Source of the DNA: an uncultured Bacilli bacterium
Lineage (GTDB): Bacteria; Bacillota_I; Bacilli_A; RF39; UBA660
DNA length: 64,000 bases
Direction of reading: 5' to 3'
Assembly: GCA_947629375.1 (NCBI GenBank)
Contig: CANRDN010000002.1
Span: 3,425-67,424 of the forward strand
The number at the start of each line of letters is the position of its first letter. Position 1 is the first letter of the stretch. The notes below the pieces were generated by a model. The model searched no databases. It worked only from the letters and a program-made list of their open reading frames with translations, and had not been told where the DNA came from. Position numbers and translations under genes: made by a program. Below, piece after piece: positions 1 through 19,370 of the stretch.

Positions 1-743
1 TAAAATCAATGGGGCAAGAATATTCCACTAAAGATTATTTAGTACAAATTCTAATCTTTTCAGGATTTGCCTTTGGTATTTCTTATATATACTTCTATAA
101 TATTGTAATTTCCATAATATATATGGTTGTAGTTGTAAGTATAATACCTTACTTAACATATTTAAGATGTAAAAGAATATTCTCAGAATTCTTATTTGAA
201 CAAATACAGGTATATACTACCAATACTATAATGGAATTCCAAACAACTCAAAACTTTGTAAAAGCTATCGAAGGTGTTTACAACTCAGGAGTTTTAGAGT
301 CACCTGTACTAGAAGATGTTAAATTTATGATAGATTTAGCTTATCGAAATGGTGATATCATCGAATCTCTTGATTTTATGAATCAAAAATATGATTACAA
401 TATGACTAGAAATATGCATCAGTTATTTTTACAGATAACAAGAGAAGGTGCAAGAGAATCTAATGAAGTTCTAGAAAATATGTTACAAGATATCGATGTT
501 TTGGTAGAAGGAGTTTATCGTGATAGAATTGATAGACAAAACTTCCATAAACAATTTATTCAATATGGACTTTTGCTTTATGCGATGGTTGCTCTTGTTC
601 AATACTTACTTGGAATGGAAAACTACCTAAAAATGCTTGAGGATCCAATAGTATTCTTTGCACTACACGCAATAGTTTTATTTAACAGTTATTTTCTTCT
701 GAATGGAGAAAAATATTATAACGAGAATGTAGGTGCTGAATAA
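1..743 (+). CDS. Tad pilus assembly membrane platform protein, TadB-like (5'-truncated by window)
   Basis: Frame is open to the window edge. Two N-terminal TM helices, a soluble T2SSF-like helical region and C-terminal TMs; the stop overlaps the start of a TadC-like gene and a pilin follows. Confidence 0.7.
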   Translation, partial: KSMGQEYSTKDYLVQILIFSGFAFGISYIYFYNIVISIIYMVVVVSIIPYLTYLRCKRIFSEFLFEQIQVYTTNTIMEFQTTQNFVKAIEGVYNSGVLESPVLEDVKFMIDLAYRNGDIIESLDFMNQKYDYNMTRNMHQLFLQITREGARESNEVLENMLQDIDVLVEGVYRDRIDRQNFHKQFIQYGLLLYAMVALVQYLLGMENYLKMLEDPIVFFALHAIVLFNSYFLLNGEKYYNENVGAE

Positions 744-1540
744 TGGTCGAGACAATTATTATATTACTTTTACTTGCTATTGGTTTGTTTTACACAGATA
801 CCGTAAGTACAAAAAAGTTTTTTAACACTGAAGATGGATATTTTCTTTCATTGAAAGAAAAAGATTATGACTTTCTTTTAAAGACAAAATATGGGGATAA
901 AGTTGAAGGAAAAACAAATTTAATATTTATGTCTAGAGTAAAAAATGCTTTCTATTCTTTTTTGATATTCTTAGCATTGATGATTGTTTCAGGAAGTTTA
1001 TCTTTCTTAAATGTAGTTCTACTTTTAGTTGTAGCATATTTCATCTTTAAGTCAGGATATACTAATTTAAAAGCATATTATAAGAAACACTTAGCTCAAA
1101 TAGACTTATTATTACCATACTACCTAAAGAACTTGGAAATTCTATGTCAGAACTATACAGTTCCAGTAGCTCTTGCAAGATCTATTGAATCTGCTCCTGA
1201 TGTATTCAAGTCAGGACTAAGAGAAATGGTTGCTAAAATAGATGCAGGTGATTCTACTATACAGCCATATATGGATTTTGCTTTACAGTATCCAGTTCGT
1301 GATTCAATGAGAATGATGAGATTACTTTACAGGTTAGGTCTTGGTGCTCAAGAAAATAAATATAAACAATTGTTAATCTTTTCAAAATCAGTTTCATCCT
1401 TACAAAATAAGGCTCGTGAAGTAAAATATAAACAGAGACTTGATATAATGGAAAAGAAGACAATGATAATGCTTGTTGTTACTGGTGGAGGTACAATGGT
1501 TATCTTATTATTGTCAATGTTGATGATGTTTGGAATATAA
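743..1540 (+). CDS. Tad pilus assembly protein, TadC-like (T2SSF domain)
   Basis: TM helices, then IDLLLPYYLKNLEIL...VPVALARS (TadC-like LP..L..L...G.....AL pattern) and a C-terminal TM; paired with the TadB-like gene. Confidence 0.7.
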   Translation: MVETIIILLLLAIGLFYTDTVSTKKFFNTEDGYFLSLKEKDYDFLLKTKYGDKVEGKTNLIFMSRVKNAFYSFLIFLALMIVSGSLSFLNVVLLLVVAYFIFKSGYTNLKAYYKKHLAQIDLLLPYYLKNLEILCQNYTVPVALARSIESAPDVFKSGLREMVAKIDAGDSTIQPYMDFALQYPVRDSMRMMRLLYRLGLGAQENKYKQLLIFSKSVSSLQNKAREVKYKQRLDIMEKKTMIMLVVTGGGTMVILLLSMLMMFGI

Positions 1541-1544
1541 AATA

Positions 1545-1573
1545 TTGATATTCGCATAAAAAATGTTTATAAT
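1545..1573 (+). promoter_or_regulatory. sigma-A type promoter for the pilin
   Basis: TTGATA (1545-1550), 17 bp spacer, TATAAT (1568-1573); RBS GAAAGGAG downstream. Confidence 0.65.
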
Positions 1574-1608
1574 AATTATATAAACTAGAAAGGAGAAATG
1601 ATTATAAT

Positions 1609-1797
1609 ATGAAAGAGGCAACAGGAGAATTAAATATGACACTTGTTACTATCATAGCAATTGCTGCAGTATTAGGCTTCGTAACATTTTTCTTACCTAA
1701 TATCTTAAATACAGTTGGAAATAAATACAACGATTCAGCAGATACAAATTGTGTTACTGGCCCAGATGGTAAAACAACATGTACAACAAACAAATAA
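1609..1797 (+). CDS. Small Flp/type IV-like major pilin candidate
   Basis: 62 aa with a short leader, one hydrophobic helix and a C-terminal Cys pair (CVTGPDGKTTC); strong RBS; directly after tadB/tadC-like genes. Confidence 0.65.
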   Translation: MKEATGELNMTLVTIIAIAAVLGFVTFFLPNILNTVGNKYNDSADTNCVTGPDGKTTCTTNK

Positions 1798-1834
1798 ACA
1801 GATAGATGATGTCATAGAAGGAGTGTGATAATAA

Positions 1835-2263
1835 ATGCGTGAGTCAATTGGTGGAACAATGTTATTCTGGATAGTATTGTTCTTTATGAGCATATTCATA
1901 GCTTTTATGGCATTTGTTATCAACTACGCAAGAGTATTTAAAATAAAGAATTCAATGATTAACTACATTGAACGAAGAGAGGGAGTAGAAAGCCAAGCAC
2001 AGTTCGAACAAGAACTTGCAACTCTTGGCTATCCAAGAACTGATAGTTATAGAGTATGCCGTCACGATTCTGATTCACCACACGGTGGATATTATTCGGT
2101 AGAACTTTACTTGACACTTGGATTTCCCATATTAAGTGGTGTTAAGCCAATTAACATAAAAATAAAAGGTGAAACACGAAATATTGAAACTGGAACGACA
2201 ATAAAAGACAAAGATACATCTTGGCAGTGCCTGACTACAGGCGATGGATGTTGTTCAAGGTAA
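1835..2263 (+). CDS. TadE/TadG-like pseudopilin candidate
   Basis: Short leader MRESIGG, then a hydrophobic helix and a small globular domain with Cys residues; Tad context. Confidence 0.55.
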   Translation: MRESIGGTMLFWIVLFFMSIFIAFMAFVINYARVFKIKNSMINYIERREGVESQAQFEQELATLGYPRTDSYRVCRHDSDSPHGGYYSVELYLTLGFPILSGVKPINIKIKGETRNIETGTTIKDKDTSWQCLTTGDGCCSR

Positions 2264-2307
2264 AAAAAGAATAAGGATAAAAGGAAATAAAAAGGTAGGT
2301 TAGTGAT

Positions 2308-3291
2308 ATGAATGTATTGATTGTTAATCAACAAGAGAATTTATTATCCTCTTTAAACATTGAAGTTATTAAAACCTTAAGAGGAACATTTGATCCTGAC
2401 GAAATTATTTCAACATTTTCTAACTTCTTTTTTGCTCGTATGATAATTGATATTACAGCATTAAACAATTGCGAAGATGTTATAACATATCAAAAATTGT
2501 CTATTGGGTTACCAATTGATAAGATAATATTACTTATACCTGCTAATTCACAGGTAGCAAATAACTTTTTCTTATCGAAACTTATATCGATGGGATACTA
2601 TAACTTCACGACTAATAGTGATGGTATAATGTATCTTTTGGAACATCCAAACACATATAAGGAAGTAGCACATTTACATCAAGCAGGAATGAGTGTTGGA
2701 GCTCCAATGGCTCCACAACCTAGTAATGGTATTAGTCCAGTTGATAATAATTTGCCGTCTGTTAGAGTTTCCGTTGGTGGAGGAGTTAGAACACTAGGAA
2801 TAAAAAATGTTACAGACAATGCAGGAGCAAGTTCATTGATTTATATGATGAAGAAAGAACTTGAAGAAACTCACAATCTTTCAGTTTTAGCTATTGAAAT
2901 TGATAAAAGAGACTTTATCTTCTTTAGAGAGGATAATATGGTTTCTACTGATAAGAACTCTTTAGCTAATGAACTGATGAGATCAAAAGATTTTGATCGA
3001 GTACTTGTTGATTTAAATGAATATGACGATACAATATGTGATGATGTTATTTATTTATTAGAACCATCAGTAATTAAGTTAAATAGATTGATGTTAAGAG
3101 ATAAGAATATCTTTTCTAAACTTAAAGGAAGAAAAGTTATAATAAATAAATCGACACTTAGTGAATCAGATGTTAGAGAATTTTCAATGGAGGCAGGTAT
3201 TAACATATTCTATGTTTTACCACCATTAAACGATAGAGAAAGATCAAGTGTAGTAAGTGATTTATTGAAATATTTAAATATGGTTCAGTAA
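2308..3291 (+). CDS. TadZ/CpaE-like protein (pseudo-receiver + degenerate MinD/ParA domain)
   Basis: N-terminal receiver-like alpha/beta region, Pro-rich linker, then a MinD-like order of motifs (GIKNVTDNAGASS degenerate P-loop, VLAIEID, VLVDL, CDDVIYL, VIINK). Confidence 0.6.
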   Translation: MNVLIVNQQENLLSSLNIEVIKTLRGTFDPDEIISTFSNFFFARMIIDITALNNCEDVITYQKLSIGLPIDKIILLIPANSQVANNFFLSKLISMGYYNFTTNSDGIMYLLEHPNTYKEVAHLHQAGMSVGAPMAPQPSNGISPVDNNLPSVRVSVGGGVRTLGIKNVTDNAGASSLIYMMKKELEETHNLSVLAIEIDKRDFIFFREDNMVSTDKNSLANELMRSKDFDRVLVDLNEYDDTICDDVIYLLEPSVIKLNRLMLRDKNIFSKLKGRKVIINKSTLSESDVREFSMEAGINIFYVLPPLNDRERSSVVSDLLKYLNMVQ

Positions 3292-3359: not shown

Positions 3360-3677
3360 ATGGATATTTTTCTTATAGCAGATTCTTGTGGTGGTCTAGG
3401 ACCAATCGTAACAGTTGTAAAAGGTTTATTTAATATAATTAAAATTTTTATACCTATAGCTTTATTGATTATGGGTGTTATAGATCTTTCAAAAGCTGTA
3501 CTAGCAAGTGATGATAAAGAGATTAAAGCTGCACAAGGTAAGTTCGTTAAGCGTGCAATTGCTGCAGTAGCTGTTTTCTTTGCATTTACTTTAGTAGATG
3601 CTGTTATGGGACTAGTTGGTCAAGGTGATGATTCTGGCGATACAACAAGTTGGTCTCAATGTTGGGAGTCAAGCTAA
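3360..3677 (+). CDS. VirB2/TrbC-like T4SS pilin
   Basis: 105 aa; two hydrophobic helices separated by a short charged loop (ASDDKEIKAAQGKFVKR), the topology of T4SS pilins; upstream of virB6/virB3/virB4-like genes. Confidence 0.65.
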   Translation: MDIFLIADSCGGLGPIVTVVKGLFNIIKIFIPIALLIMGVIDLSKAVLASDDKEIKAAQGKFVKRAIAAVAVFFAFTLVDAVMGLVGQGDDSGDTTSWSQCWESS

Positions 3678-3764: not shown

Positions 3765-4958
3765 ATGGATAAACAAATGATGAAATATGTTGGCATACTT
3801 GTTGGTTTAGTAGTGCTAGTAGTAATCGTTTTGTTATTGATGAATGGTGGCGGAGGAAATAAAAATTTGTCCTTTGATGAAATAGAAGATAAGATGGTTT
3901 CAGCTGCTAAAAAGTATGTAAAAGATAAAGGAGAAGATATTCTACCTAGTGTAAAAGGGGATTCCTTTACTCTTGATGTTGCTAATTTAGTTAATGGTGA
4001 TTATCTTGATGAACTTTCTAGTTATACAAAAGATAATGTTTCTTGTACAGGAGCTGTTGTAATTTACAATGCTGGCAATGGAAATTACGATTATGTTCCA
4101 GAACTTTCTTGTGGGTCAAACTACGAGACAAAGAAACTTTCTACGACACTAATTGGAGAAAATGGTAGCAATATAGTTGTTGAAGGCTCTGGTTTATATC
4201 AAAGACTAGATGGTAAATTTGTAACAGCTTATGAAGATTTGTATGGTAGTGGAATGGAAAATTTGGAGTATGTTTATCGTGGAGATGAAGTAAACAACTA
4301 TGTAAAGATAGATGACAACCTTTGGAGAGTAGTTGCAATTGATTCTAACCAAAATATGCTTATGATTTTAGCAAATCATTCTAAAAAAACATATGCTTGG
4401 GATGATAAATTTAACGAAGAAGTAAATAAAAGTCACGGTATAAATACTTATGAACATAACGGACTTGAAAGCAATGCATATAAAACTGTACAACAATTTT
4501 ATGATGGTGAAATCCCACTTATGGATAAAGAAGAATACAGTACAAAAACAAAATATTTAATTACTCCAATGGATTTGTGTATTGGTAAAAGAAGTCCAGA
4601 AGACAGTGATACTAGTGGAGCAATAGAATGTCAAGAAGTGTTAAATGATCAAGTTATGGGACTTTTACCTGCATATTACTTTATGAGTGCTTCTCTTGAT
4701 GAAAATTGTACATCAATAACTTCTAAGAGTTGTGGAAATTACAATTATTTAGCATCTTTCGATGATTTCTGGTGGCTTTTAACTGGAAATAGTGATGATA
4801 CATACGAAGCTTATTCAGTGTCAAAGAAATATGTTGATGTTAGTTTGTGTAAATACAAAGCTGATATAAGACCAATTATTAAAATTGGTTCTCGTGCTGT
4901 CTATAGCAAAGGTGATGGCACAAAAGATAATCCTTATACAATTAAATTTTACGGATAG
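3765..4958 (+). CDS. Membrane-anchored Cys-containing surface protein (DUF6273-like C-terminal region)
   Basis: N-terminal TM. Motifs YVYRG..NNYVKI...WRVV, WWLLT and IRPIIKI...GDGTKDNPY resemble a surface-protein family common in gut Bacilli. Confidence 0.5.
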   Translation: MDKQMMKYVGILVGLVVLVVIVLLLMNGGGGNKNLSFDEIEDKMVSAAKKYVKDKGEDILPSVKGDSFTLDVANLVNGDYLDELSSYTKDNVSCTGAVVIYNAGNGNYDYVPELSCGSNYETKKLSTTLIGENGSNIVVEGSGLYQRLDGKFVTAYEDLYGSGMENLEYVYRGDEVNNYVKIDDNLWRVVAIDSNQNMLMILANHSKKTYAWDDKFNEEVNKSHGINTYEHNGLESNAYKTVQQFYDGEIPLMDKEEYSTKTKYLITPMDLCIGKRSPEDSDTSGAIECQEVLNDQVMGLLPAYYFMSASLDENCTSITSKSCGNYNYLASFDDFWWLLTGNSDDTYEAYSVSKKYVDVSLCKYKADIRPIIKIGSRAVYSKGDGTKDNPYTIKFYG

Positions 4959-5012: not shown

Positions 5013-5044
5013 TAATGTGATTATATTAAGAAATGGGTGATTTT

Positions 5045-9717: not shown

Positions 9718-9721
9718 TTAG

Positions 9722-12086: not shown

Positions 12087-12861
12087 CACAGATAGTTATA
12101 CGGATGTTGTCGGTGGAACAGCATTAAATAAACCTTTAACTGAAGCATTAGCAGATAATGGATACACTGTTAGTGACCTTAACAATTGTATTGGCTCACG
12201 AGTTAATAGTGCTGGTTATGGTACTAGAAATGGTGTTGTGCAAGCTGGTGTTGGGTTACTAGAATGCACGATGGATATGACTGGAGGTTACACTTATCCA
12301 TATGACCACCGTGGCGGTTATGTTGGTGGTAACTATAACCCCGATATTCAAGGAAAACTTGGTGTAAATAGCAAATGGGGAGAATATGCAAGTTATGCTA
12401 CCGGATGCTCTAGTAGTAACTGTCGTCTTGGACTTAATTGTGCTAACTTTGTTAGATGGTCTATGTGTAATGGTGGAATGGATTTATGCAGTAAAGGAAG
12501 TACCTTTGCTACAGGAATGGCTGGATATAATTCCAGTGAAGATTACTTTCCTGGAGCAACGCGTGTTAAATTAACCCCATCATTCAGTGTTTTAAGTGGT
12601 TCTATAAGAGTATCATCGAAGGAGGAAGCAATAGATATGATTCAACCTGGAGATGTACTATATTCCGACCATAATGGTGGAGGCAACCACGTAATGTTAA
12701 TAGTGGGTGTAGATAATAATTCCATTACAATTGCTGAAAACGGAAGAAAAACAAGAAAAATATCAAAGAGTGATTTATCATCAAATTCAATGACTTATGT
12801 AGTATTACTTTTAGATGATTATTATGCTAATAGTGCAAATGTAAATTCACTTAGTTGGTAG
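12019..12861 (+). CDS. NlpC/P60- or CHAP-like cysteine peptidase domain; probably the frameshifted C-terminal part of the upstream gene
   Basis: GLNCANFVRW (catalytic Cys), IQPGDVL...NHVMLI (catalytic His), IAE. No RBS or signal peptide at the called start; overlaps the upstream ORF in the +1 frame. Confidence 0.65.
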   Translation: MLIFLTILVRKKSVAQEQVGLPNTDSYTDVVGGTALNKPLTEALADNGYTVSDLNNCIGSRVNSAGYGTRNGVVQAGVGLLECTMDMTGGYTYPYDHRGGYVGGNYNPDIQGKLGVNSKWGEYASYATGCSSSNCRLGLNCANFVRWSMCNGGMDLCSKGSTFATGMAGYNSSEDYFPGATRVKLTPSFSVLSGSIRVSSKEEAIDMIQPGDVLYSDHNGGGNHVMLIVGVDNNSITIAENGRKTRKISKSDLSSNSMTYVVLLLDDYYANSANVNSLSW

Positions 12862-12871: not shown

Positions 12872-13597
12872 ATGATTAAAAAAATAATTTTTGGATTATT
12901 TCCTGTGATTTTTTTGACAGGGTTTACGATAACATATGATGTAGAAATTGAAGATGGTAAAGTAAACGAAAAGCTTACTGTTATTGAAGAAGATGTAAAT
13001 CTTGCTAAAGAAGAAAATGAAGTTGGAGAAAGTTTTGAAGATATATCTAAAATGTATGGTTCTTCTTATGATTTATACACTAGTTTCTATAACTTATATG
13101 CCGATAATCCTGATATTTCAGAATGTATAAGTAACTGTTCTATTTATGATAAAGAATACATTGATGATGGTAATAGAGTTGGATTTATATTAAGTCATAC
13201 TTTTTCTTTTAAAGATTATGGGGATTCATCTCTTGCCAATGAAATAATACCTGGTTTTCAGACAATTTTAGATGATAAAACATTACAAATTAAGAGTGGA
13301 TCTTCGTGGAATTTTGTCAATGGTTATGACAACTTAGAAAAATTAGAAATAAACCTTAAAACAACATATGAAGTTGACAAAGTAAATGGTAAAAAGAAAA
13401 GCAACAAGTATACTTGGACAATTAATAGAGATAGTACTCAAAATATAATTCCATTATCTATTGTTTTAAATATAAAAAATGAGGATAATAAAGAAAGCAA
13501 TGTTCCTCTTTGGCTTATAATTTTACTCTTGGTTTTAGTTTTGGGAATTATAATATATTATTTCTTCCAAAAGAGAAAACAAGAAAATAGTATATAG
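12872..13597 (+). CDS. Exported protein with C-terminal membrane anchor (LppM/DUF3153-like layout)
   Basis: Signal-like N-terminus ending LTGF, beta-rich body, YTW motif, C-terminal TM plus basic tail. Confidence 0.45.
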   Translation: MIKKIIFGLFPVIFLTGFTITYDVEIEDGKVNEKLTVIEEDVNLAKEENEVGESFEDISKMYGSSYDLYTSFYNLYADNPDISECISNCSIYDKEYIDDGNRVGFILSHTFSFKDYGDSSLANEIIPGFQTILDDKTLQIKSGSSWNFVNGYDNLEKLEINLKTTYEVDKVNGKKKSNKYTWTINRDSTQNIIPLSIVLNIKNEDNKESNVPLWLIILLLVLVLGIIIYYFFQKRKQENSI

Positions 13598-13664: not shown

Positions 13665-16088
13665 ATGAAATTAAAATTTGTAGCATCAACAAGAGATGTA
13701 GTTATATTTCTTATTTTTGCTTTGTTTTTGTTATATGTTGTAGCATTAGGAGTTCTTAATATTCCAACTTTAGCAAGCAATGGAACTTTTTATGGACTTT
13801 CACCATTTGAAGCATTCACCCCAAGATATCTTCATTATACAATTATATTTTATATAATTGCTCTTGGTGGTTTGATTTTAAGTGTACATTCTTATTTCTT
13901 TGAATTTGGAGAAGGTATAGGAATTAAAATTGGAGATAAATCAGGTGGTGGTTACAGTGATTGGGCAAAAGCAAAAGATATTAAAAACGATCCTGATGTA
14001 AAAATGGTTTCAGCATCTGCTATGAAGTCAGACTATGCAGGAGTTCCTTTAATTAGTAATGGTAGAGAATTATGGGTAGACAATGGAGAATATCATACAT
14101 TGGTTATCGGAGCTACTGGTTCAGGTAAAACTCAAGATACAATTTTACCAACAATTAAAATACTAGCTAAAAAAGGTGAATCAGTTGTTGTTACTGACCC
14201 AAAAGGTGAGATTTATGAGAAAGCCGGAGGGCTATTAAAGAAAAGAGGATACAATATTATTGTATTAAACTTCCGTAATCCTCAAAATGGTAACTCTTGG
14301 AACCCACTAGAACTTCCATATAGATTATACAAAAATGGTAATCAAGATAAAGCAATAGAGTTACTTGATGACCTTGCATTAAATATCCTATATGATGAAA
14401 CAAACGCTAATAGTGATCCGTTCTGGGAAAAAACAGCAGCAGACTATTTTTCAGGTATTGCTCTTGCAATGTTTGAAGATACTACAGAAGATAAAATCAA
14501 CATTAACAGTATAAATATGACTGCCACTGTTGGAGAAGATAAAATAGGTGGATCAACATATATAAAAGAATATTTTAGTTTCAAAGATCCAGCAAGTGCT
14601 GCTTATGTTAACGCAAGTGGTACAGTTATGGCACCTAGTGATACTAAAGGTGGTATTATATCTGTATTTAAACAAAAAGTTAAATTATTCGCATCTCGTG
14701 AAAACTTATCAGAAATGTTAAGTTATAGTGATTTCAAACTTGATTCAATTGGAAAACAACCAACAGCAGTATTTATAATCATTCACGATGAAAAGAAAAC
14801 ATATCACTCACTTGCGACAATACTTATTAAACAAATTTATGAAACTTTAATCGATGTTGCTCAAGAAAATGGTGGAAAATTACCAATAAGAACAAATTTC
14901 TTACTTGATGAGTTTGCCAATATGCCACCACTTAAGGATGTAACAACGATGATTACAGCAGCTCGTTCAAGACAGATAAGATTTACAATGATTATTCAGA
15001 ACTTTGCTCAGTTAAATAAAGTATATGGTAAAGATGATGCCGAAACAATTAAAGGTAACTGTGGAAACATAATTTATTTGATTTCTAAAGAGTTAGCAGC
15101 CCTTGAAGAAATAAGTAAACTTTGTGGAGAAAAGAAGTCTAAAAAAGATGATAAGACAGCTTCCACACCACTTGTTACAGTAAGTGATTTGCAAGTTATG
15201 AAACAATTCGATCATATCCTATTAAGAATGAGAAAAAGACCATTTAAAACATCCTTTACACCAGATTTCAAAACTGATTGGGGTGAAGCAGGAGCAAATA
15301 CAAAAATTGATTATCCTGTAAGAGAAAAAAGACCTGTTGCTATTTTTGATATCAGGGAAATGGTTAAAGCTAAAGTAGAAGAGAGAAAAAATAAAAAAAT
15401 AAACGAAATGATGGCATCAATCGATAATGGAAATCCTATGTCTAGTTCTAGTCCAATGGGTGGAGGAGCAGGCTTCCCACCAATGTTTGGAGGACCAAAA
15501 CCACAGCAAGCTCCAAGTGTTCAACCTAAGAAAGATGACAATCAAATAAATGGTATCTTAAAGATGATTGATGAAAAACTTGCTGAAATAGAAAAAGAAG
15601 AAAAAGAGGCAAAACAAGAAAAAGCACCAAAAACAAAAGAGCCAGTTTATAATAACATCACAGTAAATAATTATGAAAGCAATAAAGCCCCTGAAAAACC
15701 TAAAAATGATATTGAACTATTAGATGATGACTTTTTAATAGATAACTCTGAAATTGAAAGAAAAGTTAATGAAAAATTATCAAATACTGCAATTGAGTCA
15801 CAACAGGAAAAGGAAGAGACTAAAAATTATCAAGAAGTTATTAAACCTAAAGAAGAAGTTAAAGAAAGTAACCCATCTACTCCAAAAGATAGTGATGTCG
15901 AATTATTAAATTTCTTTGATAATGACGATGATGAAGAAGTTTTAGATATGATAGAGAAGGGAATGCCTGAACTTAAAGAAACACAGAAACCTGAAGAGAA
16001 AGTCGGTAATTTCAAACCAACTCCTACAATTAAACTTGATGATGTAGCAGATGATGATAAATTCTTTGATGATTTCTTTGATGATTAA
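13665..16088 (+). CDS. virD4: VirD4/TraG type IV coupling protein with long acidic C-terminal tail
   Basis: Two N-terminal TMs, HTLVIGATGSGKT, VVTDPKGE, SWNPL, DPFW, FLLDEFAN, RSR...IIQN..QL...YG...AETI..NC. Confidence 0.9.
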   Translation: MKLKFVASTRDVVIFLIFALFLLYVVALGVLNIPTLASNGTFYGLSPFEAFTPRYLHYTIIFYIIALGGLILSVHSYFFEFGEGIGIKIGDKSGGGYSDWAKAKDIKNDPDVKMVSASAMKSDYAGVPLISNGRELWVDNGEYHTLVIGATGSGKTQDTILPTIKILAKKGESVVVTDPKGEIYEKAGGLLKKRGYNIIVLNFRNPQNGNSWNPLELPYRLYKNGNQDKAIELLDDLALNILYDETNANSDPFWEKTAADYFSGIALAMFEDTTEDKININSINMTATVGEDKIGGSTYIKEYFSFKDPASAAYVNASGTVMAPSDTKGGIISVFKQKVKLFASRENLSEMLSYSDFKLDSIGKQPTAVFIIIHDEKKTYHSLATILIKQIYETLIDVAQENGGKLPIRTNFLLDEFANMPPLKDVTTMITAARSRQIRFTMIIQNFAQLNKVYGKDDAETIKGNCGNIIYLISKELAALEEISKLCGEKKSKKDDKTASTPLVTVSDLQVMKQFDHILLRMRKRPFKTSFTPDFKTDWGEAGANTKIDYPVREKRPVAIFDIREMVKAKVEERKNKKINEMMASIDNGNPMSSSSPMGGGAGFPPMFGGPKPQQAPSVQPKKDDNQINGILKMIDEKLAEIEKEEKEAKQEKAPKTKEPVYNNITVNNYESNKAPEKPKNDIELLDDDFLIDNSEIERKVNEKLSNTAIESQQEKEETKNYQEVIKPKEEVKESNPSTPKDSDVELLNFFDNDDDEEVLDMIEKGMPELKETQKPEEKVGNFKPTPTIKLDDVADDDKFFDDFFDD

Positions 16089-16113: not shown

Positions 16114-16737
16114 ATGAAAAAAACAATAATTATATTAGCAATGTTATCAGTTCTTTTACCTATAAGAATAAATGCTCTTGAATCTTCTGAAATTACAAGT
16201 GATACAGTAACTTTAAGTAAATGTGTAGATGGTAATTCGGCAAGATTTATGTTAGGACTTTCCGAGATTAAAGTTAAATTTTTAGGTATTGATGTCGAAG
16301 AAAAAATAAAATACAAAAGTACTGGACAAATTGATGAAAACTACATAAGTAATTATGTATGTGAAGCTTTAACGAGTGCTAAAAAAATTACAATTGAATA
16401 CGAACCAGGAATTGAAAAAGAAGATAAATATGGTAGAATTCAAGCTTGGGTAATCATCGATGATGAACTTTTACAAGAAGACTTATTAAAAAATGGTTAT
16501 GCTAAAGTAATGTACTTAAATGATGAATATACTTACAAAGATGAAATAAAAGAGGCTCAAGATTATGCTCAAGAAAACAGATTAGGTATTTGGGAAGATG
16601 AGCAAGTAGAAAAGGAAAATAAAGAAACTAAAGAGAAAAATTCAAAAGGATTTTTTGAAACAATATTTGACTTTATTGGAGATTTATTTCAAAAAATATT
16701 AGATTTTATAGATGATTTAATCAGTGATATTTTTTAG
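16114..16737 (+). CDS. Secreted thermonuclease (SNase) family protein with substituted catalytic residues
   Basis: Signal peptide; CVDGNS, KVKFLGIDVEE, DKYGRIQAWV, LL..GYA, AQ..A....LGIW; amphipathic C-terminal helix. Confidence 0.8.
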   Translation: MKKTIIILAMLSVLLPIRINALESSEITSDTVTLSKCVDGNSARFMLGLSEIKVKFLGIDVEEKIKYKSTGQIDENYISNYVCEALTSAKKITIEYEPGIEKEDKYGRIQAWVIIDDELLQEDLLKNGYAKVMYLNDEYTYKDEIKEAQDYAQENRLGIWEDEQVEKENKETKEKNSKGFFETIFDFIGDLFQKILDFIDDLISDIF

Positions 16738-16753
16738 ATTAGGAGGTAGTTAA

Positions 16754-17191
16754 ATGGACCTATTAAAAGAATTAAAAAAATTCAAAAAAAGACACCCTTT
16801 AACTATTGCGTGGAGATTAAAAAGTAATGTTGGAATTGTTGAAAAACATCTCAACGACGATGAAAAAGTAGAATACATTTTTGCTGGTCAAAAAACTAAT
16901 CTTTCATATGATTTCTTTTCCACAGCAGTTGTTGCTATAACAAATAAAAGAATTTTGGTAGGTAGAAAAAGAGTGTTCTTTGGGTATGCTCTCGATTCTA
17001 TTATGCCATATATGTACAATGACTTAAATATAAGAGCAGGAATCTTTTGGGGAAAAGTAGTAATTGATACTGCCAAAGAAGTAGTGATAATTAGTAAAAT
17101 TGATAAATCTGCTTTAGATGAGATAGAAACAGCAATAAGTAAAACAATGATAAAATTAAAAAAGGAATATAGTAGTGAATCAAAAAAATAA
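16754..17191 (+). CDS. Bacterial PH-domain protein
   Basis: LNDDEKVEY...VVAITNKRIL..RKRVFFG...GIFWGKVVI, a YokE/bPH-like pattern. Confidence 0.7.
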   Translation: MDLLKELKKFKKRHPLTIAWRLKSNVGIVEKHLNDDEKVEYIFAGQKTNLSYDFFSTAVVAITNKRILVGRKRVFFGYALDSIMPYMYNDLNIRAGIFWGKVVIDTAKEVVIISKIDKSALDEIETAISKTMIKLKKEYSSESKK

Positions 17192-18104
17192 TTATTTAAT
17201 CCTTTCTACCGATAAAATTTCTATTGATTCTAAAATAAAAAGTATCATTGATAAAATTGATAATAAAGATATAGATATCATAAAATATACCTATCCTGAT
17301 AATGATATCGCAACAGTATTAGAAGATTTAAATACTTATAATTTCTTATCTAATTTAAAAGTAATAATTTATAATAATTGTTCATTTTTATCTAAAGATC
17401 AAGATAAGGATATTAAAAAAATAAAAACTTACTTAGAAAATCCTAGTGATAATTATCTAATTATGATTAGTGATTCCTTAAGTGAAAGAAAAGAATGTAA
17501 AGAAGTTTCAAATCTATTAGATGTAACTGATAACAACATATCATCTGAAACATTAATAAAAGATAATTTAGATGATTTAAAAATGGATTATAAAACAATA
17601 AAATACTTTTCTAGTTATTGCTTAAATAACAATGAGAAGATTATCAATGAATTAAACAAATTGAAATGTTATAAATATAGTGAAAATGATAAAAATATTA
17701 GTATAGATGATATTAATAATATTGTTATGCGTGACTATGATGAGGATATTTTTGATTTGGTTAATGCTATTGTCGAAAAGAATAAAACAAGGGCTTTTGA
17801 TTTGTACTACCGTATTTCAAAAAAAGAAAAGGATGCAGTAAACATTGTAGCAAGTGTTGCAGGTGGTATTAGAAATCTTTATAGTGTTAAAATATTATTA
17901 GAAAAAAATTATCGACAGAATGATATTTCAAATATTTTAGGAATAAAGCCCTATGCAGTTTCTATAGCATCACAAAATTGTGGAAATTACAGTACTAAAA
18001 AACTATTAGGTTTACTAGATATGCTATCAGAAATTGATTATAAAACAAAAAGTGGTAAAGGTCACAGTAATACATTGTTTGAAATGTTTTTACTTAGCCT
18101 ATAA
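17175..18104 (+). CDS. holA: DNA polymerase III delta subunit
   Basis: 309 aa; LNTYNFLSNLKVII, NELNKL, DIFDLVNAI, LGIKPYAV, EIDYKTKSG...LFEMFLL. Confidence 0.85.
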   Translation: MNQKNNYLILSTDKISIDSKIKSIIDKIDNKDIDIIKYTYPDNDIATVLEDLNTYNFLSNLKVIIYNNCSFLSKDQDKDIKKIKTYLENPSDNYLIMISDSLSERKECKEVSNLLDVTDNNISSETLIKDNLDDLKMDYKTIKYFSSYCLNNNEKIINELNKLKCYKYSENDKNISIDDINNIVMRDYDEDIFDLVNAIVEKNKTRAFDLYYRISKKEKDAVNIVASVAGGIRNLYSVKILLEKNYRQNDISNILGIKPYAVSIASQNCGNYSTKKLLGLLDMLSEIDYKTKSGKGHSNTLFEMFLLSL

Positions 18105-18120
18105 GAAGGTGTTGGTTAAG

Positions 18121-19347
18121 ATGTTAAAAAAGGCAATTACATTTTCATTTATTATGCTATTGATGCTTTTATTGTATCAAGTAGGAGTTAATTATATAAA
18201 AATAAATCATTCAATAACTTATACAATAAAGAAAGACCATGTTTATACGATAAAAGAAGATTATCAAAAAAATGATGATTTAGACCATTATTTCTTGAAA
18301 ATAACTCGTAATGATGACAAAGTCTTTCTATTTGATATTGATAATGTATTTAATAAACAAGAAGAAATCGTATCTGATATATTAGAATATAGTAAAGATG
18401 ACTTTGAATGTATAACATTAATTTATAAAAGTAAGGGTGGATACTCTGAACCATTGTGTTCAAAAGATGGAGTAGTGTATTCATACCAAGCTGCTAAAGA
18501 TTTGGTTGATCTAAGTGAGTATACAAGCAAAATAAAAAAATTTGAATTGGATAAATTTGGTGATAAAAGTAAAATAGAAGTTACAAATAATATTAACTAT
18601 AATGTAGATTATTTTGAAGATAATGAAGTTTTAGTTATGTACGATTACAAGGTAGTAAATTATATTGATAAAAAGTTTTCAAGATCAATGTCATTTTCTA
18701 ATGTCGATAATTACAAAAATACTTTAGGAACAATTGTAGGAAAGTATTATATGATGCCAAGATTTTCTACTTCGACAAGTTTTAATACATACATTAAATT
18801 TAATTTAGAAGAGGGAATAAAGAACGAAATACATATGACTTATAGAATTTCAAAGCAAGCTTATATAAATGGAGTTCACGATAAGAAACTATATGTTTTT
18901 GATCCTATAGAAAATAAACAATATGAAATAGATCCATATACAGATGAAGCCAAGATTGTTGGAGACGAAAATAACGATGGTATCATTTATGTAAATGGTA
19001 AAAAGAAAAGTATATCAGTATATGATTTACAAAAAGAACAAGTTAAATTTAGTGAAGATGAGGAAAGATTTAAAAATATAGATTATGATAGAATATACAT
19101 TGGTGAAATGAAGACGATTTATCAAAAAGATGGAAGTTTTTATAAGATATACAATGATTATCCAGAATATCCAATATATTTATTTACAGACAAAGATGCT
19201 GAAAGGGTAATAGTACGAAATGAAAATGTTTACTATTTAAAAGATGATTCTATATATAGATATGATAAATATGGTAATGTATTACTAGCTCAAAAGAATG
19301 AATTAAAATATAACAAGGACAATACATTTGACATTTATTTAAAATAG
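18121..19347 (+). CDS. Membrane-anchored extracellular protein of unknown function (beta-rich)
   Basis: ATG at 18121 after AAGGTG; single N-terminal TM and a Tyr-rich beta-type body. Confidence 0.6.
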   Translation: MLKKAITFSFIMLLMLLLYQVGVNYIKINHSITYTIKKDHVYTIKEDYQKNDDLDHYFLKITRNDDKVFLFDIDNVFNKQEEIVSDILEYSKDDFECITLIYKSKGGYSEPLCSKDGVVYSYQAAKDLVDLSEYTSKIKKFELDKFGDKSKIEVTNNINYNVDYFEDNEVLVMYDYKVVNYIDKKFSRSMSFSNVDNYKNTLGTIVGKYYMMPRFSTSTSFNTYIKFNLEEGIKNEIHMTYRISKQAYINGVHDKKLYVFDPIENKQYEIDPYTDEAKIVGDENNDGIIYVNGKKKSISVYDLQKEQVKFSEDEERFKNIDYDRIYIGEMKTIYQKDGSFYKIYNDYPEYPIYLFTDKDAERVIVRNENVYYLKDDSIYRYDKYGNVLLAQKNELKYNKDNTFDIYLK

Positions 19348-19370
19348 AAGAGCAAAATCTTCTGTTTTTT
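19346..19370 (+). terminator. Rho-independent terminator
   Basis: AGAAGA-gcaaaa-TCTTCT followed by gTTTTT. Confidence 0.5.

What the first reader, a model, noticed from the sequence alone, without database searches (positions are those of the whole stretch)
1..19370. Chromosomally domesticated Tad-pilus + relaxase-free type IV secretion supercluster
Seen: Tad-like genes (tadB, tadC, pilin, pseudopilin, tadZ) run on the same strand straight into a monoderm T4SS set (VirB2-like pilin, VirB6, VirB3, VirB4-N, VirB4, wall hydrolases, VirD4) and then into holA. Between the VirB2-like pilin and holA there is no relaxase, integrase, excisionase, repressor, anti-restriction or replication gene. Established: ICE and plasmid T4SS need a relaxase/oriT, and Tad pili mediate adhesion and prey contact (Bdellovibrio, the Myxococcus Kil system). 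Inference: this is a host-encoded contact machine rather than an ICE. Tad pili could attach to another cell while the T4SS injects proteins or moves DNA/nutrients, a possible epibiotic or predatory apparatus in a gut Bacillus-class lineage. The region upstream of position 1 is not visible.
Basis: partly seen in the sequence, partly recalled or inferred. Interest (0 to 1): 0.85.

Follow-up and report, generated by a model that had tools for sequence, protein, structure and literature searches.

The report
Chromosomal pilus-plus-secretion machine of gut Bacilli
A conjugation-type secretion machine joined to a pilus-like gene set is a fixed chromosomal feature of a large group of uncultured, small-genome gut bacteria rather than a mobile element, which suggests that these bacteria depend on direct contact with other cells.

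Summary
The gene array is real. It starts 3.2 kb before the window, with cpaB-like and tadA-like genes, and runs co-directionally through a Tad-like module and a Gram-positive T4SS to VirD4, then SNase, bPH and holA.

It is not an ICE.
- A single-copy VirB4 ortholog occurs in 77 of 81 genomes of the order and in 40 of 41 genera-representatives of the family.
- The Tad+T4SS order is collinear in three fetched relatives and across 80 species loci.
- VirB4 diverges at 0.92 times the rate of RpoB. Its tree tracks the RpoB tree (Mantel r 0.87), but an AU test rejects the exact RpoB topology.
- No relaxase or integrase lies in or beside the cluster.
- 19 of 40 carrier genomes match none of five relaxase families. 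This genome does carry relaxases on other contigs.

The same Tad-like plus T4SS pairing exists on Bacillus conjugative plasmids. The closest chromosomal analogue is the Patescibacteria T4SS. The cargo and the proposed epibiotic role are untested.

This scan found the same system before in at least eight other genomes.

The parts
1..743 (+). TadB-like polytopic membrane protein (299 aa; its first 157 nt lie upstream of the window, at C2:3268). The cpaB-like gene (C2:235-1122) and the TadA/CpaF-VirB11-type ATPase (C2:1230-3239, 669 aa with a P/Q/T-rich tail) precede it outside the window.
   Evidence: ORF. No Pfam or PDB sequence hit. hhalign 93% to the pBMB67 305-aa ORF that follows its T2SSE ATPase. 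Found in 60 of 80 related loci. Upstream genes: RcpC E 6.5e-5, T2SSE E 5.8e-26, TIGR03177 E 2e-9.
743..1540 (+). TadC-like membrane protein (265 aa)
   Evidence: No family hit. hhalign 93% to the pBMB67 244-aa ORF. AF2 model pLDDT 69, all-helical; Foldseek gave no significant hit, with EpsF/OutF cytoplasmic domains only at E 2-3. Found in 61 of 80 loci.
1609..1797 (+). Small pilin-like protein (62 aa) with a short leader, an invariant G-ELN and a hydrophobic helix
   Evidence: Alignment of 20 orthologs plus the pBMB67 89-aa ORF. Found in 55 of 80 loci. No family hit at a meaningful level.
1835..2263 (+). TadE-like pseudopilin candidate (142 aa, N-terminal hydrophobic helix)
   Evidence: Sequence. 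Found in 49 of 80 loci. The only Pfam hit is a chance-level YMF19 match to the hydrophobic helix. Named by position only.
2308..3291 (+). TadZ-like two-domain protein (327 aa): receiver-like N-domain plus a MinD/ParA-type domain without a canonical Walker A lysine
   Evidence: AF2 pLDDT 82. Foldseek hits MinD, ParA, HypB and MeaB, plus 3fkq, a two-domain protein of Eubacterium rectale, at E 6e-5. Found in 64 of 80 loci. hhalign to the pBMB67 AAA_31 protein was not significant.
3360..3677 (+). VirB2-like T4SS pilin (105 aa, two hydrophobic helices, two invariant cysteines); a terminator-like hairpin follows at 3690-3707
   Evidence: PF18895 E 5.4e-5, below cut-off. 9 of 16 orthologs hit it. Invariant C10 and C101. 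Hairpin. Found in 76 of 80 loci.
3765..4958 (+). Membrane-anchored extracellular protein of unknown family (397 aa)
   Evidence: No Pfam or NCBIfam hit. Found in 60 of 80 loci. Atlas neighbours are unnamed Bacillota clusters, some carrying DUF6273 or N_methyl; these are leads only.
5033..7054 (+). VirB6/TrbL-like polytopic channel protein (673 aa)
   Evidence: TrbL_4 E 3.5e-5, below cut-off. Weak pLS20_p028 hit, E 0.031. Found in 76 of 80 loci.
7073..7405 (+). VirB3/PrgI-sized small membrane protein (110 aa)
   Evidence: Position between the VirB6-like and VirB4 genes. Found in 78 of 80 loci. hhalign to the pBMB67 PrgI-family protein gives 68% over 22 columns, sharing a YLIPxN motif. Pairwise BLAST was not significant.
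7371..7937 (+). Separate VirB4 N-terminal-domain-like protein (188 aa)
   Evidence: Matches positions 100-276 of NCBIfam NF045975, E 3.3e-16. 27% identity, E 2e-17, to the 227-aa ORF before VirB4 on pBMB67. Found in 79 of 80 loci.
7888..9717 (+). VirB4 ATPase (609 aa); a terminator-like hairpin follows at 9720-9741
   Evidence: AAA_10 E 3.9e-13, P-loop_TraG E 1.2e-10. NF045975 356 bits (cut-off 590) and CD1110 family 180 bits (cut-off 325). Single copy in the genome.
9834..12086 (+). Large SpoIID-domain cell-wall protein (750 aa)
   Evidence: SpoIID E 2.3e-8. Found in 25 of 80 loci with this query. Other genera carry a different hydrolase, for example Peptidase_M23 in G023.
12019..12861 (+). 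NlpC/P60-CHAP-like peptidoglycan peptidase (280 aa)
   Evidence: NLPC_P60 E 7.1e-4 and CHAP E 1.4e-3, both below cut-off.
12872..13597 (+). Membrane protein of unknown family (241 aa)
   Evidence: Only short sub-domain hits: PLDc_N (23.8 bits, just over its 23.3 cut-off, on a 33-residue C-terminal hydrophobic stretch) and Orf78 (below cut-off). Found in 11 of 80 loci with this query.
13665..16088 (+). VirD4-type coupling protein (807 aa) with a long charged tail ending in an acidic run
   Evidence: T4SS-DNA_transf E 8.7e-61, TraG-D_C E 5.8e-25. NF045973 299 bits, above the 250 cut-off. 31% identity to pBMB67 VirD4. Tail sequence.
16114..16737 (+). Secreted staphylococcal-nuclease-like protein (207 aa). 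A genus-level neighbour; membership in the machine is not shown.
   Evidence: SNase E 1.5e-14. Thermonuclease NucI model E 5e-21, below cut-off. Found in 7 of 80 loci.
16754..17191 (+). Bacterial PH-domain protein (145 aa); a genus-level neighbour
   Evidence: bPH_3 E 1.2e-9. Found in 10 of 80 loci.
17175..18104 (+). holA (DNA polymerase III delta). A housekeeping flank that marks the end of the cluster; not part of the machine.
   Evidence: DNA_pol3_delta_C E 1.7e-32. Follows the cluster in G002 as well, but in only 4 of 80 loci.

Best explanation
What it is (about 0.9 likely)
This is a chromosomal, vertically inherited derivative of the conjugation apparatus found on pAW63/pBMB67- and pLS20-type plasmids of Bacillota. 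It combines two gene sets.
- A monoderm T4SS: VirB2-like pilin, VirB6-like, VirB3-sized protein, a split VirB4, wall hydrolases and a VirD4 coupling protein.
- The Tad-like set that accompanies this T4SS type on those plasmids: CpaB-like, CpaF/VirB11-type ATPase, two membrane proteins, a small pilin, a pseudopilin candidate and a TadZ-like protein.
It has lost the relaxase and all other plasmid or ICE functions. It is kept as a single-copy core locus in nearly every species of a large family of uncultured, genome-reduced gut Bacilli.

How it works (inferred, about 0.45 likely)
- The ATPase-driven Tad-like set assembles a short pilus or pseudopilus from the small pilin. This pilus reaches through the wall and holds a neighbouring cell.
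- The hydrolases open the peptidoglycan.
- VirB3, VirB4 and VirB6, with the VirB2-like pilin, form the channel.
- VirD4 selects cytoplasmic cargo through its long charged tail.
- The conserved job is contact-dependent exchange with another cell that the host bacterium itself needs. This would parallel the chromosomal relaxase-less T4SS that Saccharibacteria require for epibiotic growth. It is not the self-transfer of a mobile element.

Shown: gene content, conservation, synteny, and the lack of mobility genes in the locus.
Inferred: assembly, contact, the cargo and the benefit.
For: Gene content.

Conservation
- Single-copy VirB4 ortholog in 16 of 16 congeners and 7 of 8 other sampled genera.
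- In 40 of 41 genomes drawn one per genus across the family.
- In 77 of 81 genomes of the order.
- At class level in 12 of 121 genomes, confined to this family and two others, with 0 of 107 elsewhere.

Synteny
- The whole cpaB-to-virD4 order is collinear in a closed 1.31-Mb chromosome (G002) and in two other genera.
- In 80 species loci: virB4N 79, virB3 78, virB2 76, virB6 76, virD4 66, tadC 61, tadB 60. The shortfalls come mostly from 10-kb flanks and contig ends.
- Chromosomal neighbours are conserved: rmuC in 35 of 80 loci, and holA in this genus.
- G002 has no relaxase or integrase among the seven upstream ORFs. G018 and G023 have none in their flanks.

Selection and phylogeny
- VirB4 divergence is 0.92 times RpoB divergence over 20 genomes.
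- Patristic distances correlate, r 0.87, with 0 of 9999 permutations as high.
- 9 of 17 splits are shared, including the genus, both of its subclades and a five-step nested series.

Relaxases
- 19 of 40 carrier genomes match none of PF03432, PF01076, PF03389, PF02486 or PF13814.
- Typical ICE-type VirB4 genes (786-847-aa frames) are patchy by contrast, in 6 of 41 genomes. Three of these have a PF03432 hit within 6 kb.

Plasmid ancestry
- pBMB67 carries a MobP3 relaxase, VirD4, TrbL, PrgI, a 227-aa ORF and VirB4, plus a SAF/CpaB-like protein, an AAA ATPase, a T2SSE ATPase, two ORFs, a small ORF and DUF4320.
- Homology to that plasmid is gene by gene.
- A pLS20-type plasmid has a CpaF/VirB11 gene inside its T4SS operon.

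Analogy
Passages of PMC12857230 and PMC12102498 describe the Patescibacteria T4SS as chromosomal, MPF_FATA-related, mostly without a relaxase, carrying VirB2-like pilins, and essential for epibiotic growth.
Against: - The VirB4 alignment rejects the full RpoB topology (AU p 0.00025). One intra-genus grouping is rejected on its own (p 0.044). Some exchange of the locus between close species is therefore possible.
- G037, from another family, has VirB4 closer to this genome's (68.9%) than its RpoB is (61.2%). Only 1 of 3 genomes of that family carry the ortholog. This looks like one horizontal transfer.
- This genome does hold relaxases: PF03432 on C19, C27 and C67; Mob_Pre on C67, C53, C50 and C55. 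It also holds a second T4CP beside one of them.
- 21 of 41 family genomes have some relaxase hit, so DNA transfer through this machine is not excluded.
- The retained VirD4 is equally expected for DNA transfer.
- TadB and TadC could not be placed in the T2SSF platform family. The pilin lacks the Flp G/XXXXEY motif. That a pilus is made is therefore unproven.
- MAGs under-sample plasmids and repeats, so 'no relaxase found' is not absence.
- PF13814 had no positive among the 14 control genomes.
- No expression data were obtained.
Confidence: 0.6

Rival explanations
1. The machine is still a DNA-transfer apparatus. It would be the lineage's resident conjugation pore, used in trans by small mobilisable elements that carry only a relaxase (with or without a T4CP). 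It might also move chromosomal DNA between cells, as in Mycoplasma chromosomal transfer.
For: - VirD4 is retained and conserved.
- This genome has 4 Mob_Pre and 2-3 PF03432 relaxase genes and a second T4CP, but only one VirB4.
- 12 of 41 family genomes have a Mob_Pre relaxase and no second VirB4.
- The closed G002 chromosome has two Mob_Pre genes and a second T4CP but one VirB4.
- The best NCBIfam model for VirB4 is the Mycoplasma ICE ATPase.
- The intra-genus conflict between the VirB4 and RpoB trees would fit recombination among close species.
- The acidic C-terminal tail of VirD4 recalls, from memory, the relaxosome-docking tails of TraD-type coupling proteins.
Against: - 19 of 40 carriers show none of the five relaxase families. 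Yet they keep the locus about as conserved as RpoB.
- Serving parasitic elements does not explain host-level purifying selection in 0.7-0.9 Mb genomes.
- The relaxase contigs of this genome have 36-43% G+C against about 29% for the genome, so they may be mis-binned.
Confidence: 0.3
2. It is an ICE or an integrated plasmid, active or decaying, whose relaxase, integrase and attachment site lie just beyond the contig start.
For: - The contig starts 234 bp upstream of cpaB.
- Every T4SS gene has plasmid homologs.
- Relaxases exist elsewhere in the assembly.
Against: - The ortholog is single-copy and near-universal.
- The locus is collinear, with conserved chromosomal flanks, in a closed genome and in other genera. 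None has mobility genes next to it.
- All frames are intact.
- VirB4 is as conserved as RpoB.
- The probable upstream contig C14 ends in an ABC transporter, a diacylglycerol kinase and an unknown ORF. The adjacency of C14 and C2 is not proven.
Confidence: 0.03
3. It is a DNA-uptake or DNA-release system, of the ComB type or the gonococcal type. It would feed nucleotides to an auxotrophic cell, helped by the adjacent secreted nuclease.
For: - A secreted SNase-like nuclease gene directly follows VirD4.
- The locus sits before holA, which, as recalled, follows the comE operon in Bacillus.
- The genomes are small.
Against: - ComEC is present in 5 of 5 genomes checked, including two of 0.8 Mb, and a prepilin peptidase in 5 of 5. 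A standard uptake route therefore exists.
- The nuclease accompanies the locus in only 7 of 80 loci.
- As recalled, the ComB system lacks VirD4, whereas VirD4 is conserved here.
Confidence: 0.05
4. The 'Tad' half is not a separate adhesive pilus. It would be an integral sub-assembly of this T4SS type: a VirB11-like ATPase with its membrane partners and a pseudopilus. The locus would then encode one machine and not two coupled ones.
For: - The ATPase scores best against VirB11 (E 2.6e-31) and against 'TadA family conjugal transfer-associated ATPase' (E 3.4e-28).
- The same gene set is embedded in or next to the T4SS genes of pBMB67 and pLS20-type plasmids. In pAW63 the ATPase was read as VirB11 (passages of PMC1196294 and PMC9673590).
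- TadB and TadC do not match the T2SSF family.
- The pilin motif is not Flp-like.
Against: - CpaB/RcpC-like and TadZ-like proteins and a class-III-type small pilin are hallmarks of Tad systems.
- A few related loci (for example L046, L071, L072, L074) have 10 kb upstream of VirB4 without the Tad genes. The two halves can therefore be separated.
Confidence: 0.35

Closest known systems
Conjugation regions of pAW63/pXO2-family plasmids (here pBMB67, NC_009841.1) and pLS20-family plasmids (here NZ_CP123978.1) of Bacillus
   Same: - The same T4SS subtype and local gene order: VirB6/TrbL, a small PrgI/DUF5592 protein, an ORF of about 200-250 aa, then VirB4, then hydrolase(s), with a CD1115-family VirD4.
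- The same accompanying CpaB-like / T2SSE ATPase / two-ORF / small-ORF set.
- Homology is gene by gene: VirB4 30%, VirD4 31%, VirB4-N 27%, TadB and TadC hhalign 93%.
   Different: - The plasmids carry MobP2 or MobP3 relaxases and replication, partition and toxin-antitoxin genes, and are typed as conjugative or mobilizable. The locus here has none of these and is chromosomal, single-copy and lineage-wide.
- Identities are only about 30%.
- A VirB2-like PF18895 pilin gene is present here. None is annotated in the two plasmid regions examined.
Chromosomal T4SS of Patescibacteria/Saccharibacteria (Southlakia epibionticum; Wang et al. 2023 as cited in PMC12857230; PMC12102498)
   Same: - Monoderm, MPF_FATA-related and chromosomal.
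- Mostly without a relaxase.
- Near-ubiquitous in a genome-reduced lineage.
- Carries VirB2-like pilins (PF18895), VirB3, VirB4, VirB6, a hydrolase and VirD4.
- Co-exists with type IV pilus genes and ComEC.
(Passages read; this locus.)
   Different: - A different phylum.
- Whether the two VirB4 clades are sisters was not tested here.
- Essentiality and an epibiotic lifestyle are shown only for Saccharibacteria.
- The tightly linked Tad-like module and the split VirB4 are features of the plasmid-type operon. They are not mentioned in the passages read.
Mycoplasma ICE conjugation genes (CDS17 VirB4, CDS5 VirD4; NCBIfam NF045975)
   Same: - It is the best-scoring NCBIfam model for VirB4. The 188-aa and 609-aa proteins cover model positions 100-276 and 293-891.
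- It is a relaxase-poor system of genome-reduced relatives within the same class.
   Different: - The score of 356 bits is below the 590 cut-off.
- The Mycoplasma protein is one fused chain on a mobile ICE with its own recombinase.
- Those ICEs lack VirB1-like hydrolases (passage of PMC12857230), which are present here.
Tad/Flp (type IVc) pili of Caulobacter and Aggregatibacter
   Same: - A CpaB/RcpC-like protein, a CpaF/TadA-class ATPase, two membrane proteins after it, a small pilin, a pseudopilin-sized ORF and a TadZ-like two-domain protein.
- The gene order resembles a tad locus.
   Different: - No T2SSF match for TadB or TadC.
- No Flp motif.
- No prepilin peptidase in the locus.
- No secretin, as expected for a monoderm.
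- The ATPase is nearer to VirB11 and conjugal TadA models.

Membership tests
Monoderm conjugation-type T4SS (MPF_FATA-like) | VirB4-family ATPase | tested here: met
   AAA_10 E 3.9e-13, P-loop_TraG E 1.2e-10. VirB4-type NCBIfam models E 2.6e-106 and E 4.8e-53, both below their equivalog cut-offs.
Monoderm conjugation-type T4SS (MPF_FATA-like) | VirD4-type coupling protein | tested here: met
   PF02534 E 8.7e-61. NF045973 CD1115 family 299 bits, above the 250 cut-off.
Monoderm conjugation-type T4SS (MPF_FATA-like) | VirB6-like and VirB3-like membrane components and a wall hydrolase | tested here: inconclusive
   VirB6: TrbL_4 23.7 bits, below the 27 cut-off. VirB3: hhalign only 68% over 22 columns. 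Hydrolases: SpoIID domain over cut-off; NlpC/P60 and CHAP below cut-off.
Self-transmissible conjugative element (ICE or plasmid) | Relaxase (MOB) with the T4SS | tested here: not met
   None among the ORFs from C2:235 to holA. The relaxases of this genome lie on other contigs. 19 of 40 carriers have none of five families.
Self-transmissible conjugative element (ICE or plasmid) | Integrase or excisionase, attachment repeats, and patchy strain-to-strain presence | tested here: not met
   No recombinase family in or beside the locus here or in G002, G018 or G023. Presence in 77 of 81 and 40 of 41 genomes. att repeats could not be searched here because the contig starts at the locus.
Tad/Flp type IVc pilus | TadA/CpaF secretion ATPase | tested here: met
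   T2SSE E 5.8e-26. The closest models are VirB11 and the conjugal TadA family, all below equivalog cut-offs.
Tad/Flp type IVc pilus | TadB/TadC platform proteins of the T2SSF (PF00482) family | tested here: not met
   No Pfam, NCBIfam or PDB profile hit. The fold search was not significant, with EpsF/OutF at E 2-3 only.
Tad/Flp type IVc pilus | Flp pilin with the G/XXXXEY processing motif (motif recalled) and a dedicated prepilin peptidase | tested here: not met
   The pilin has an invariant G-ELN, not XXXXEY. There is no A24 peptidase in the locus. One copy per genome lies elsewhere in 5 of 5 genomes.
Tad/Flp type IVc pilus | CpaB/RcpC and TadZ/CpaE accessory proteins | tested here: inconclusive
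   CpaB: RcpC 23.3 bits (cut-off 28.8) and TIGR03177 37 bits (cut-off 71). TadZ-like: fold match only. That 3fkq is the TadZ structure is recalled, not shown by a call.
Patescibacteria-type chromosomal T4SS | Chromosomal, relaxase-less and lineage-wide, with PF18895 VirB2-like pilin(s) | tested here: met
   The pilin is sub-threshold but consistent, in 9 of 16 orthologs. A second paralog lies at C2:78156-78407.
Patescibacteria-type chromosomal T4SS | VirB4 inside the Patescibacteria clade; required for epibiotic growth | not tested
Growth dependence cannot be tested with these tools.
Mycoplasma ICE VirB4 (NF045975) | Score over the model's cut-off as one chain | tested here: not met
   356 bits against a cut-off of 590. 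The match is split over two genes.

The most novel reading that the evidence does not exclude
These genome-reduced gut Bacilli (RF39-type) would be contact-dependent symbionts of other gut microbes or of host cells. The T4SS with its built-in Tad-like pilus would be their essential attachment-and-exchange organelle. That would make it a second, independently domesticated counterpart of the Saccharibacteria T4SS, derived from a Bacillus-plasmid-type conjugation operon. It would explain why the lineage has resisted cultivation.
Probability: 0.25. Interest if true: 0.9.

Novelty: new variant of a known kind. Interest (0 to 1): 0.66.

Why it matters
A 2025 review of T4SSs (PMC12857230, passages read) describes the Patescibacteria system as unique among monoderms, both for being needed by the bacterium itself and for having VirB2-like pilins. 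Here a whole family of uncultured gut and rumen Bacilli keeps a relaxase-less T4SS with a VirB2-like pilin and a pilus-type module. The family spans more than 100 genus codes in the samples drawn, with genomes of 0.7-1.9 Mb. The VirB4 of this system is about as conserved as RNA polymerase.

If the machine mediates cell contact, three things follow.
- It gives a concrete, testable handle on how these abundant but uncultured organisms live, and a route to growing them in co-culture.
- It shows that conjugation machinery has been taken over for host functions more than once in monoderms.
- It draws attention to a Tad-like module in well-known Bacillus conjugative plasmids. In the pAW63 papers read here, that module was described only as 'VirB11'.

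Three full-text searches combining RF39 with type IV secretion, T4SS, VirB4, VirD4 or related terms listed no paper describing this system.

Tried and rejected
- Expression: no RNA holder was listed for window:3301-13300. Four RNA runs laid on window:1-19400 gave only 31-38 partial, low-complexity (poly-A/T-adjacent) matches in three runs and none in the fourth. This says nothing about expression.
- TadB and TadC as T2SSF proteins: profile searches of PDB sequences found nothing. The AF2 model of TadC (pLDDT 69) gave no Foldseek hit below E 1.5. TadB versus TadC by hhalign gave 26% probability.
- TadZ-like versus the pBMB67 AAA_31 protein: hhalign 4% probability.
- VirB3 versus PrgI: pairwise BLAST E 0.23.
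- Promoter scan: 124 sites against 111.6 +/- 8.8 expected, which is not informative.
- The idea that the T4SS replaced the competence system is rejected, because ComEC is present in 5 of 5 genomes.
- The idea that the 188-aa ORF is a frameshifted VirB4 is rejected by its conservation (79 of 80 loci) and by the plasmid homolog.
- Base composition as a sign of foreign origin is rejected. The cluster has 29-34% G+C and contig C2 has 28.9%.
- PF13814 (Replic_Relax) had no positive among the control genomes, so its zero result is weak.
- Paper PMC13492992 was checked for CpaF, Tad or pilus genes in pELF plasmids and nothing relevant was found. PMC12306168 mentions RF39 only in passing.
- Not used: complex prediction, the search for homologous proteins, the search of protein representatives, and the metagenome and viral scans.

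Full report
Where the window lies and what is in it

The window is G000:C2:3425-67424 of a 1.87-Mb, 72-contig assembly, 95.6% complete and about 29% G+C. From base 1 to 18104 every sizeable ORF is on the + strand.

Pfam and NCBIfam give the following.
- A VirB2-like T4SS_pilin at 3360-3677 (E 5.4e-5, below the cut-off).
- A TrbL_4/VirB6-like protein at 5033-7054 (below the cut-off).
- A 110-aa VirB3-sized ORF.
- A 188-aa protein matching only the N-terminal part of VirB4 models.
- VirB4 at 7888-9717.
- A 750-aa SpoIID-domain protein and an NlpC/P60-CHAP-like peptidase.
- VirD4 at 13665-16088 (E 8.7e-61; NCBIfam CD1115 family, above its cut-off).
- A secreted SNase-like nuclease, a bacterial PH-domain protein and holA.

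None of the 12 ORFs between 3360 and 17191 matches a relaxase, recombinase, repressor, anti-restriction or replication family.

The five ORFs before the pilin gene have no useful family hit. The 3.4 kb of contig upstream of the window holds a CpaB/RcpC-like gene and a 669-aa T2SSE ATPase. The first window ORF starts there. The contig begins 234 bp before the cpaB-like gene.

The Tad-like half

- The ATPase scores best against VirB11 (E 2.6e-31) and against 'TadA family conjugal transfer-associated ATPase' (E 3.4e-28). All scores are below the equivalog cut-offs. Its last 220 or so residues are a P/Q/T-rich low-complexity tail.
- 'TadB' and 'TadC' could not be placed in the T2SSF family. They have no Pfam or NCBIfam hit and no PDB profile hit. 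An AF2 model of TadC (pLDDT 69) gave no significant Foldseek match. EpsF/OutF cytoplasmic domains appear only at E 2-3.
- They are, however, homologous (hhalign 93% each) to the two unannotated ORFs that follow the T2SSE ATPase on plasmid pBMB67.
- The 62-aa ORF has an invariant MKxAxG-ELN leader plus a hydrophobic helix in 20 orthologs. The small pBMB67 ORF shares the TGxLN motif. This is a class-III-type signal but not the Flp motif.
- ORF 2308-3291 folds (pLDDT 82) into a receiver-like domain plus a MinD/ParA/HypB-type domain. It matches the two-domain Eubacterium rectale protein 3fkq at E 6e-5. I recall 3fkq as the TadZ structure.
- One A24 prepilin peptidase per genome lies elsewhere, in 5 of 5 genomes checked.

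So 'Tad-like' is a fair description, but two defining features of Tad pili were tested and not met.

Is it mobile?

The evidence says no.

Distribution of the ortholog
- A VirD4 ortholog (66-84% identity) is in 16 of 16 congeners and, at 51-68%, in 7 of 8 other sampled genera of the family.
- VirB4 orthologs (86-95% within the genus, 72-78% within the family) show the same pattern, one copy per genome.
- With one genome per genus, 40 of 41 family genomes have it.
- 77 of 81 genomes of the order have it.
- In a class-wide sample it is confined to this family (9 of 9 plus G000), one single-genome family and 1 of 3 genomes of another. It is in 0 of 107 genomes elsewhere.
- At least 501 species-level genomes in the public collection encode a relative. 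The 80 best are uncultured gut and rumen 'Bacilli/Tenericutes' MAGs, Clostridium sp. CAG:710 and Candidatus Faecimonas. The assignment to order RF39 comes from memory and from earlier notes of this scan, not from a call.

Synteny and flanks
- The order cpaB-tadA-tadB-tadC-pilin-tadE-tadZ-virB2-...-virB4-...-virD4 is collinear in the closed 1.31-Mb chromosome G002 and in two other genera.
- In the 80 loci, virB4N, virB3, virB2 and virB6 accompany virB4 in 76-79 cases, and the tad genes in 49-64. Most shortfalls are due to the 10-kb flank or contig ends. A few loci (L046, L071, L072, L074) have a full upstream flank without tad genes.
- Flanks are chromosomal. In G002 the upstream genes are an unknown ORF, a 968-aa N-methyl-motif adhesin, an unknown ORF, a glycosyltransferase, a sigma factor and an epimerase.
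- rmuC lies downstream in 35 of 80 loci. holA follows in this genus.
- In G000 the G002 upstream genes are on contig C14. That contig ends with an ABC transporter, a diacylglycerol kinase and an unknown open-ended ORF. C14 probably abuts C2, but this is not proven.

Phylogeny and rate

For the 20 genomes in which both genes were recovered, I built VirB4 and RpoB trees (quick IQ-TREE, LG+G4). Dropped genomes were G006, G013 and G024, which had no RpoB match; G011, G014 and G015, for which one of the two genes was only partial or not fetched as a locus; and G017, which has no VirB4.

- The trees share 9 of 17 internal splits. The shared splits include the genus, its two subclades and the nested series G004, G007, G005, G009, (G002, G010).
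- Patristic distances correlate at r 0.87, with 0 of 9999 permutations as high.
- Against this, the VirB4 alignment rejects the complete RpoB topology (AU p 0.00025).
- Taken singly, four conflicting RpoB clades are not rejected (p 0.13-0.45) and one is (p 0.044). That one lies within a subclade where RpoB support is itself 22-56.
- VirB4 amino-acid divergence is 0.92 times that of RpoB. This is very strong conservation for a 'conjugation' gene.
- G037 is the exception. Its VirB4 is 68.9% identical and its RpoB 61.2%, and presence in its family is patchy, which suggests one lateral acquisition.

Relaxases

This genome is not relaxase-free.
- PF03432 genes lie on C19, C27 and C67. Mob_Pre genes lie on C67, C53, C50 and C55. 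No Rep_trans was found.
- A second T4CP (26% identity) lies on C27 near its relaxase. There is no second VirB4.
- Most of these contigs have 36-43% G+C.

Across the 41 genus representatives the picture is as follows.
- PF03432 hits 9 genomes (4 over the cut-off), Mob_Pre 18, MobA_MobL 0, Rep_trans 0, and Replic_Relax 1 weak hit.
- The union is 21 genomes, so 19 of the 40 carriers have none. These include G051 (98% complete, 5 contigs) and G004 and G058 (10 contigs each).
- G002 has no PF03432 hit, but has two Mob_Pre genes about 200 and 425 kb from the locus.
- Ordinary ICE-type VirB4 genes (786-847-aa frames) are patchy, in 6 of 41 genomes. In three of these a PF03432 hit lies within 6 kb on the same contig. 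That is how a real ICE looks in these genomes.

Caveats: MAGs lose plasmids and repeats, other MOB classes were not searched, and PF13814 had no positive control.

Origin

- The nearest plasmid VirB4 proteins are 30% identical. All 2662 matching records are below 60%.
- pBMB67 (pAW63/pXO2 family) carries a MobP3 relaxase, a CD1115-family VirD4, TrbL, a PrgI-family protein, a 227-aa ORF and VirB4. About 9 kb further on it carries a SAF/RcpC protein, an AAA_31 ATPase, a T2SSE ATPase, two ORFs, a small ORF and DUF4320.
- The 188-aa protein here is homologous to that 227-aa ORF (E 2e-17). The 'split VirB4' is therefore ancestral to this T4SS subtype. The pAW63 gene table shows the same 105/223/645-aa series (passages of PMC1196294).
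- pLS20-type plasmids place a CpaF/VirB11 gene right after VirD4 in the same operon, with a MobP2 relaxase downstream.
- In the pAW63 paper and in a 2022 review, this ATPase is treated simply as VirB11 in the passages I read.
- The supercluster is therefore an inherited plasmid-type architecture that has been stripped of its mobility functions.

What it most likely does

ComEC is present in 5 of 5 genomes, so the locus did not replace the uptake channel. The nuclease neighbour is genus-specific (7 of 80 loci). Retention of VirD4, with a long charged tail that ends in an acidic run, implies selection of cytoplasmic cargo.

Two readings remain.

(a) A host function that needs cell contact. Three observations favour this.
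- The RpoB-like conservation.
- Persistence of the locus in 0.7-0.9-Mb genomes.
- Its presence in many genomes without any detected relaxase.
The Saccharibacteria precedent supports it by analogy. That system is a chromosomal MPF_FATA-related T4SS with VirB2-like pilins, mostly without a relaxase, essential for epibiotic growth and independent of ComEC (passages of PMC12857230 and PMC12102498).

(b) A resident conjugation pore exploited by mobilisable elements, and perhaps used for chromosomal exchange. Two observations favour this.
- 12 of 41 genomes carry a MOBV relaxase but no other VirB4.
- There is intra-genus tree conflict.

I rate (a) at about 0.45 and (b) at about 0.3. They are not mutually exclusive. 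I could obtain no expression evidence.

Novelty

Guglielmini et al. showed that MOB-less T4SSs are common and interpreted them as exaptations. They found no pilins in MPF_FATA (passages of PMC3548315 and PMC4027160). The 2025 review calls the Patescibacteria system unique among monoderms. Three full-text searches combining RF39 with T4SS-related terms listed nothing on this system. Supplements could not be read.

The system is thus a new variant of a known kind and not a new category. This scan has already reported the same system from at least eight other genomes of the lineage, with concordant conclusions. The present window adds the following.
- The rate comparison with RpoB.
- The family-wide relaxase census, set against the ICE-type VirB4 contrast.
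- The AU result.
- The TadZ-like fold.
- The negative T2SSF tests.

Noticed in passing
G000:C14:22927-26172 and C14:33804-40895 (L170:7927-11172, L171:1804-8895): Two giant proteins (1081 and 2363 aa) start with a type IV pilin N-methylation motif. They continue with Listeria-Bacteroides repeats and many cysteine-rich Ephrin_rec_like/NCD3G repeats. Homologs sit directly upstream of the Tad/T4SS cluster in G002 and right after VirD4 in G023. They may be pilus-displayed adhesins working with this machine.
   Followed up: partly
G000:C2:78156-78407 (outside the window); also L024 about 7300-8700 in G018: Extra VirB2-like pilin paralogs lie away from the main locus: one more in this genome (40% identity) and three more in G018. 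This recalls the multi-pilin arrays described for Patescibacteria.
   Followed up: no
G000 contigs C27, C50, C53, C55, C67 (and C19): Relaxase genes (MOBP and MOBV types) sit on short contigs of 36-43% G+C, against about 29% for the genome. C27 also has a T4CP but no VirB4. They are either mobilisable elements that would need a helper T4SS or mis-binned DNA. C19 (26.7% G+C) carries a MOBP relaxase with host-like composition.
   Followed up: partly
window 3690-3707 and 9720-9741: Terminator-like hairpins on the + strand lie directly after the VirB2-like pilin gene and after VirB4. A hairpin after a major pilin gene could raise pilin transcript levels relative to the genes downstream.
   Followed up: no
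L022:2400-3803 (G002): In the closed relative, a 467-aa ORF on the opposite strand is inserted between the TadZ-like gene and the VirB2-like gene. It was not annotated here and may be an insertion sequence.
   Followed up: no
G037:C76:14266-16050: A genome of another family carries a VirB4 ortholog that is more similar to this genome's (68.9%) than its RpoB is (61.2%). Only 1 of 3 genomes of that family have it. This is a likely lateral transfer of the otherwise vertical locus.
   Followed up: partly
C2:1230-3239 (upstream of the window) and window 15250-16088: The TadA-type ATPase carries a P/Q/T/V-rich tail of about 220 aa that is absent from relatives (354-436 aa there). VirD4 carries a lysine/glutamate-rich tail of about 230 aa ending in DDDKFFDDFFDD. 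Both tails vary between species.
   Followed up: no
G062:C61, G066:C37, G137:C11, G095:C6: A second VirB4 type (786-795-aa frames, about 345-370 bits to the family profile) occurs sporadically. In G066 a relaxase-like gene lies 2 kb away. It could be the still-mobile cousin of the domesticated system.
   Followed up: no
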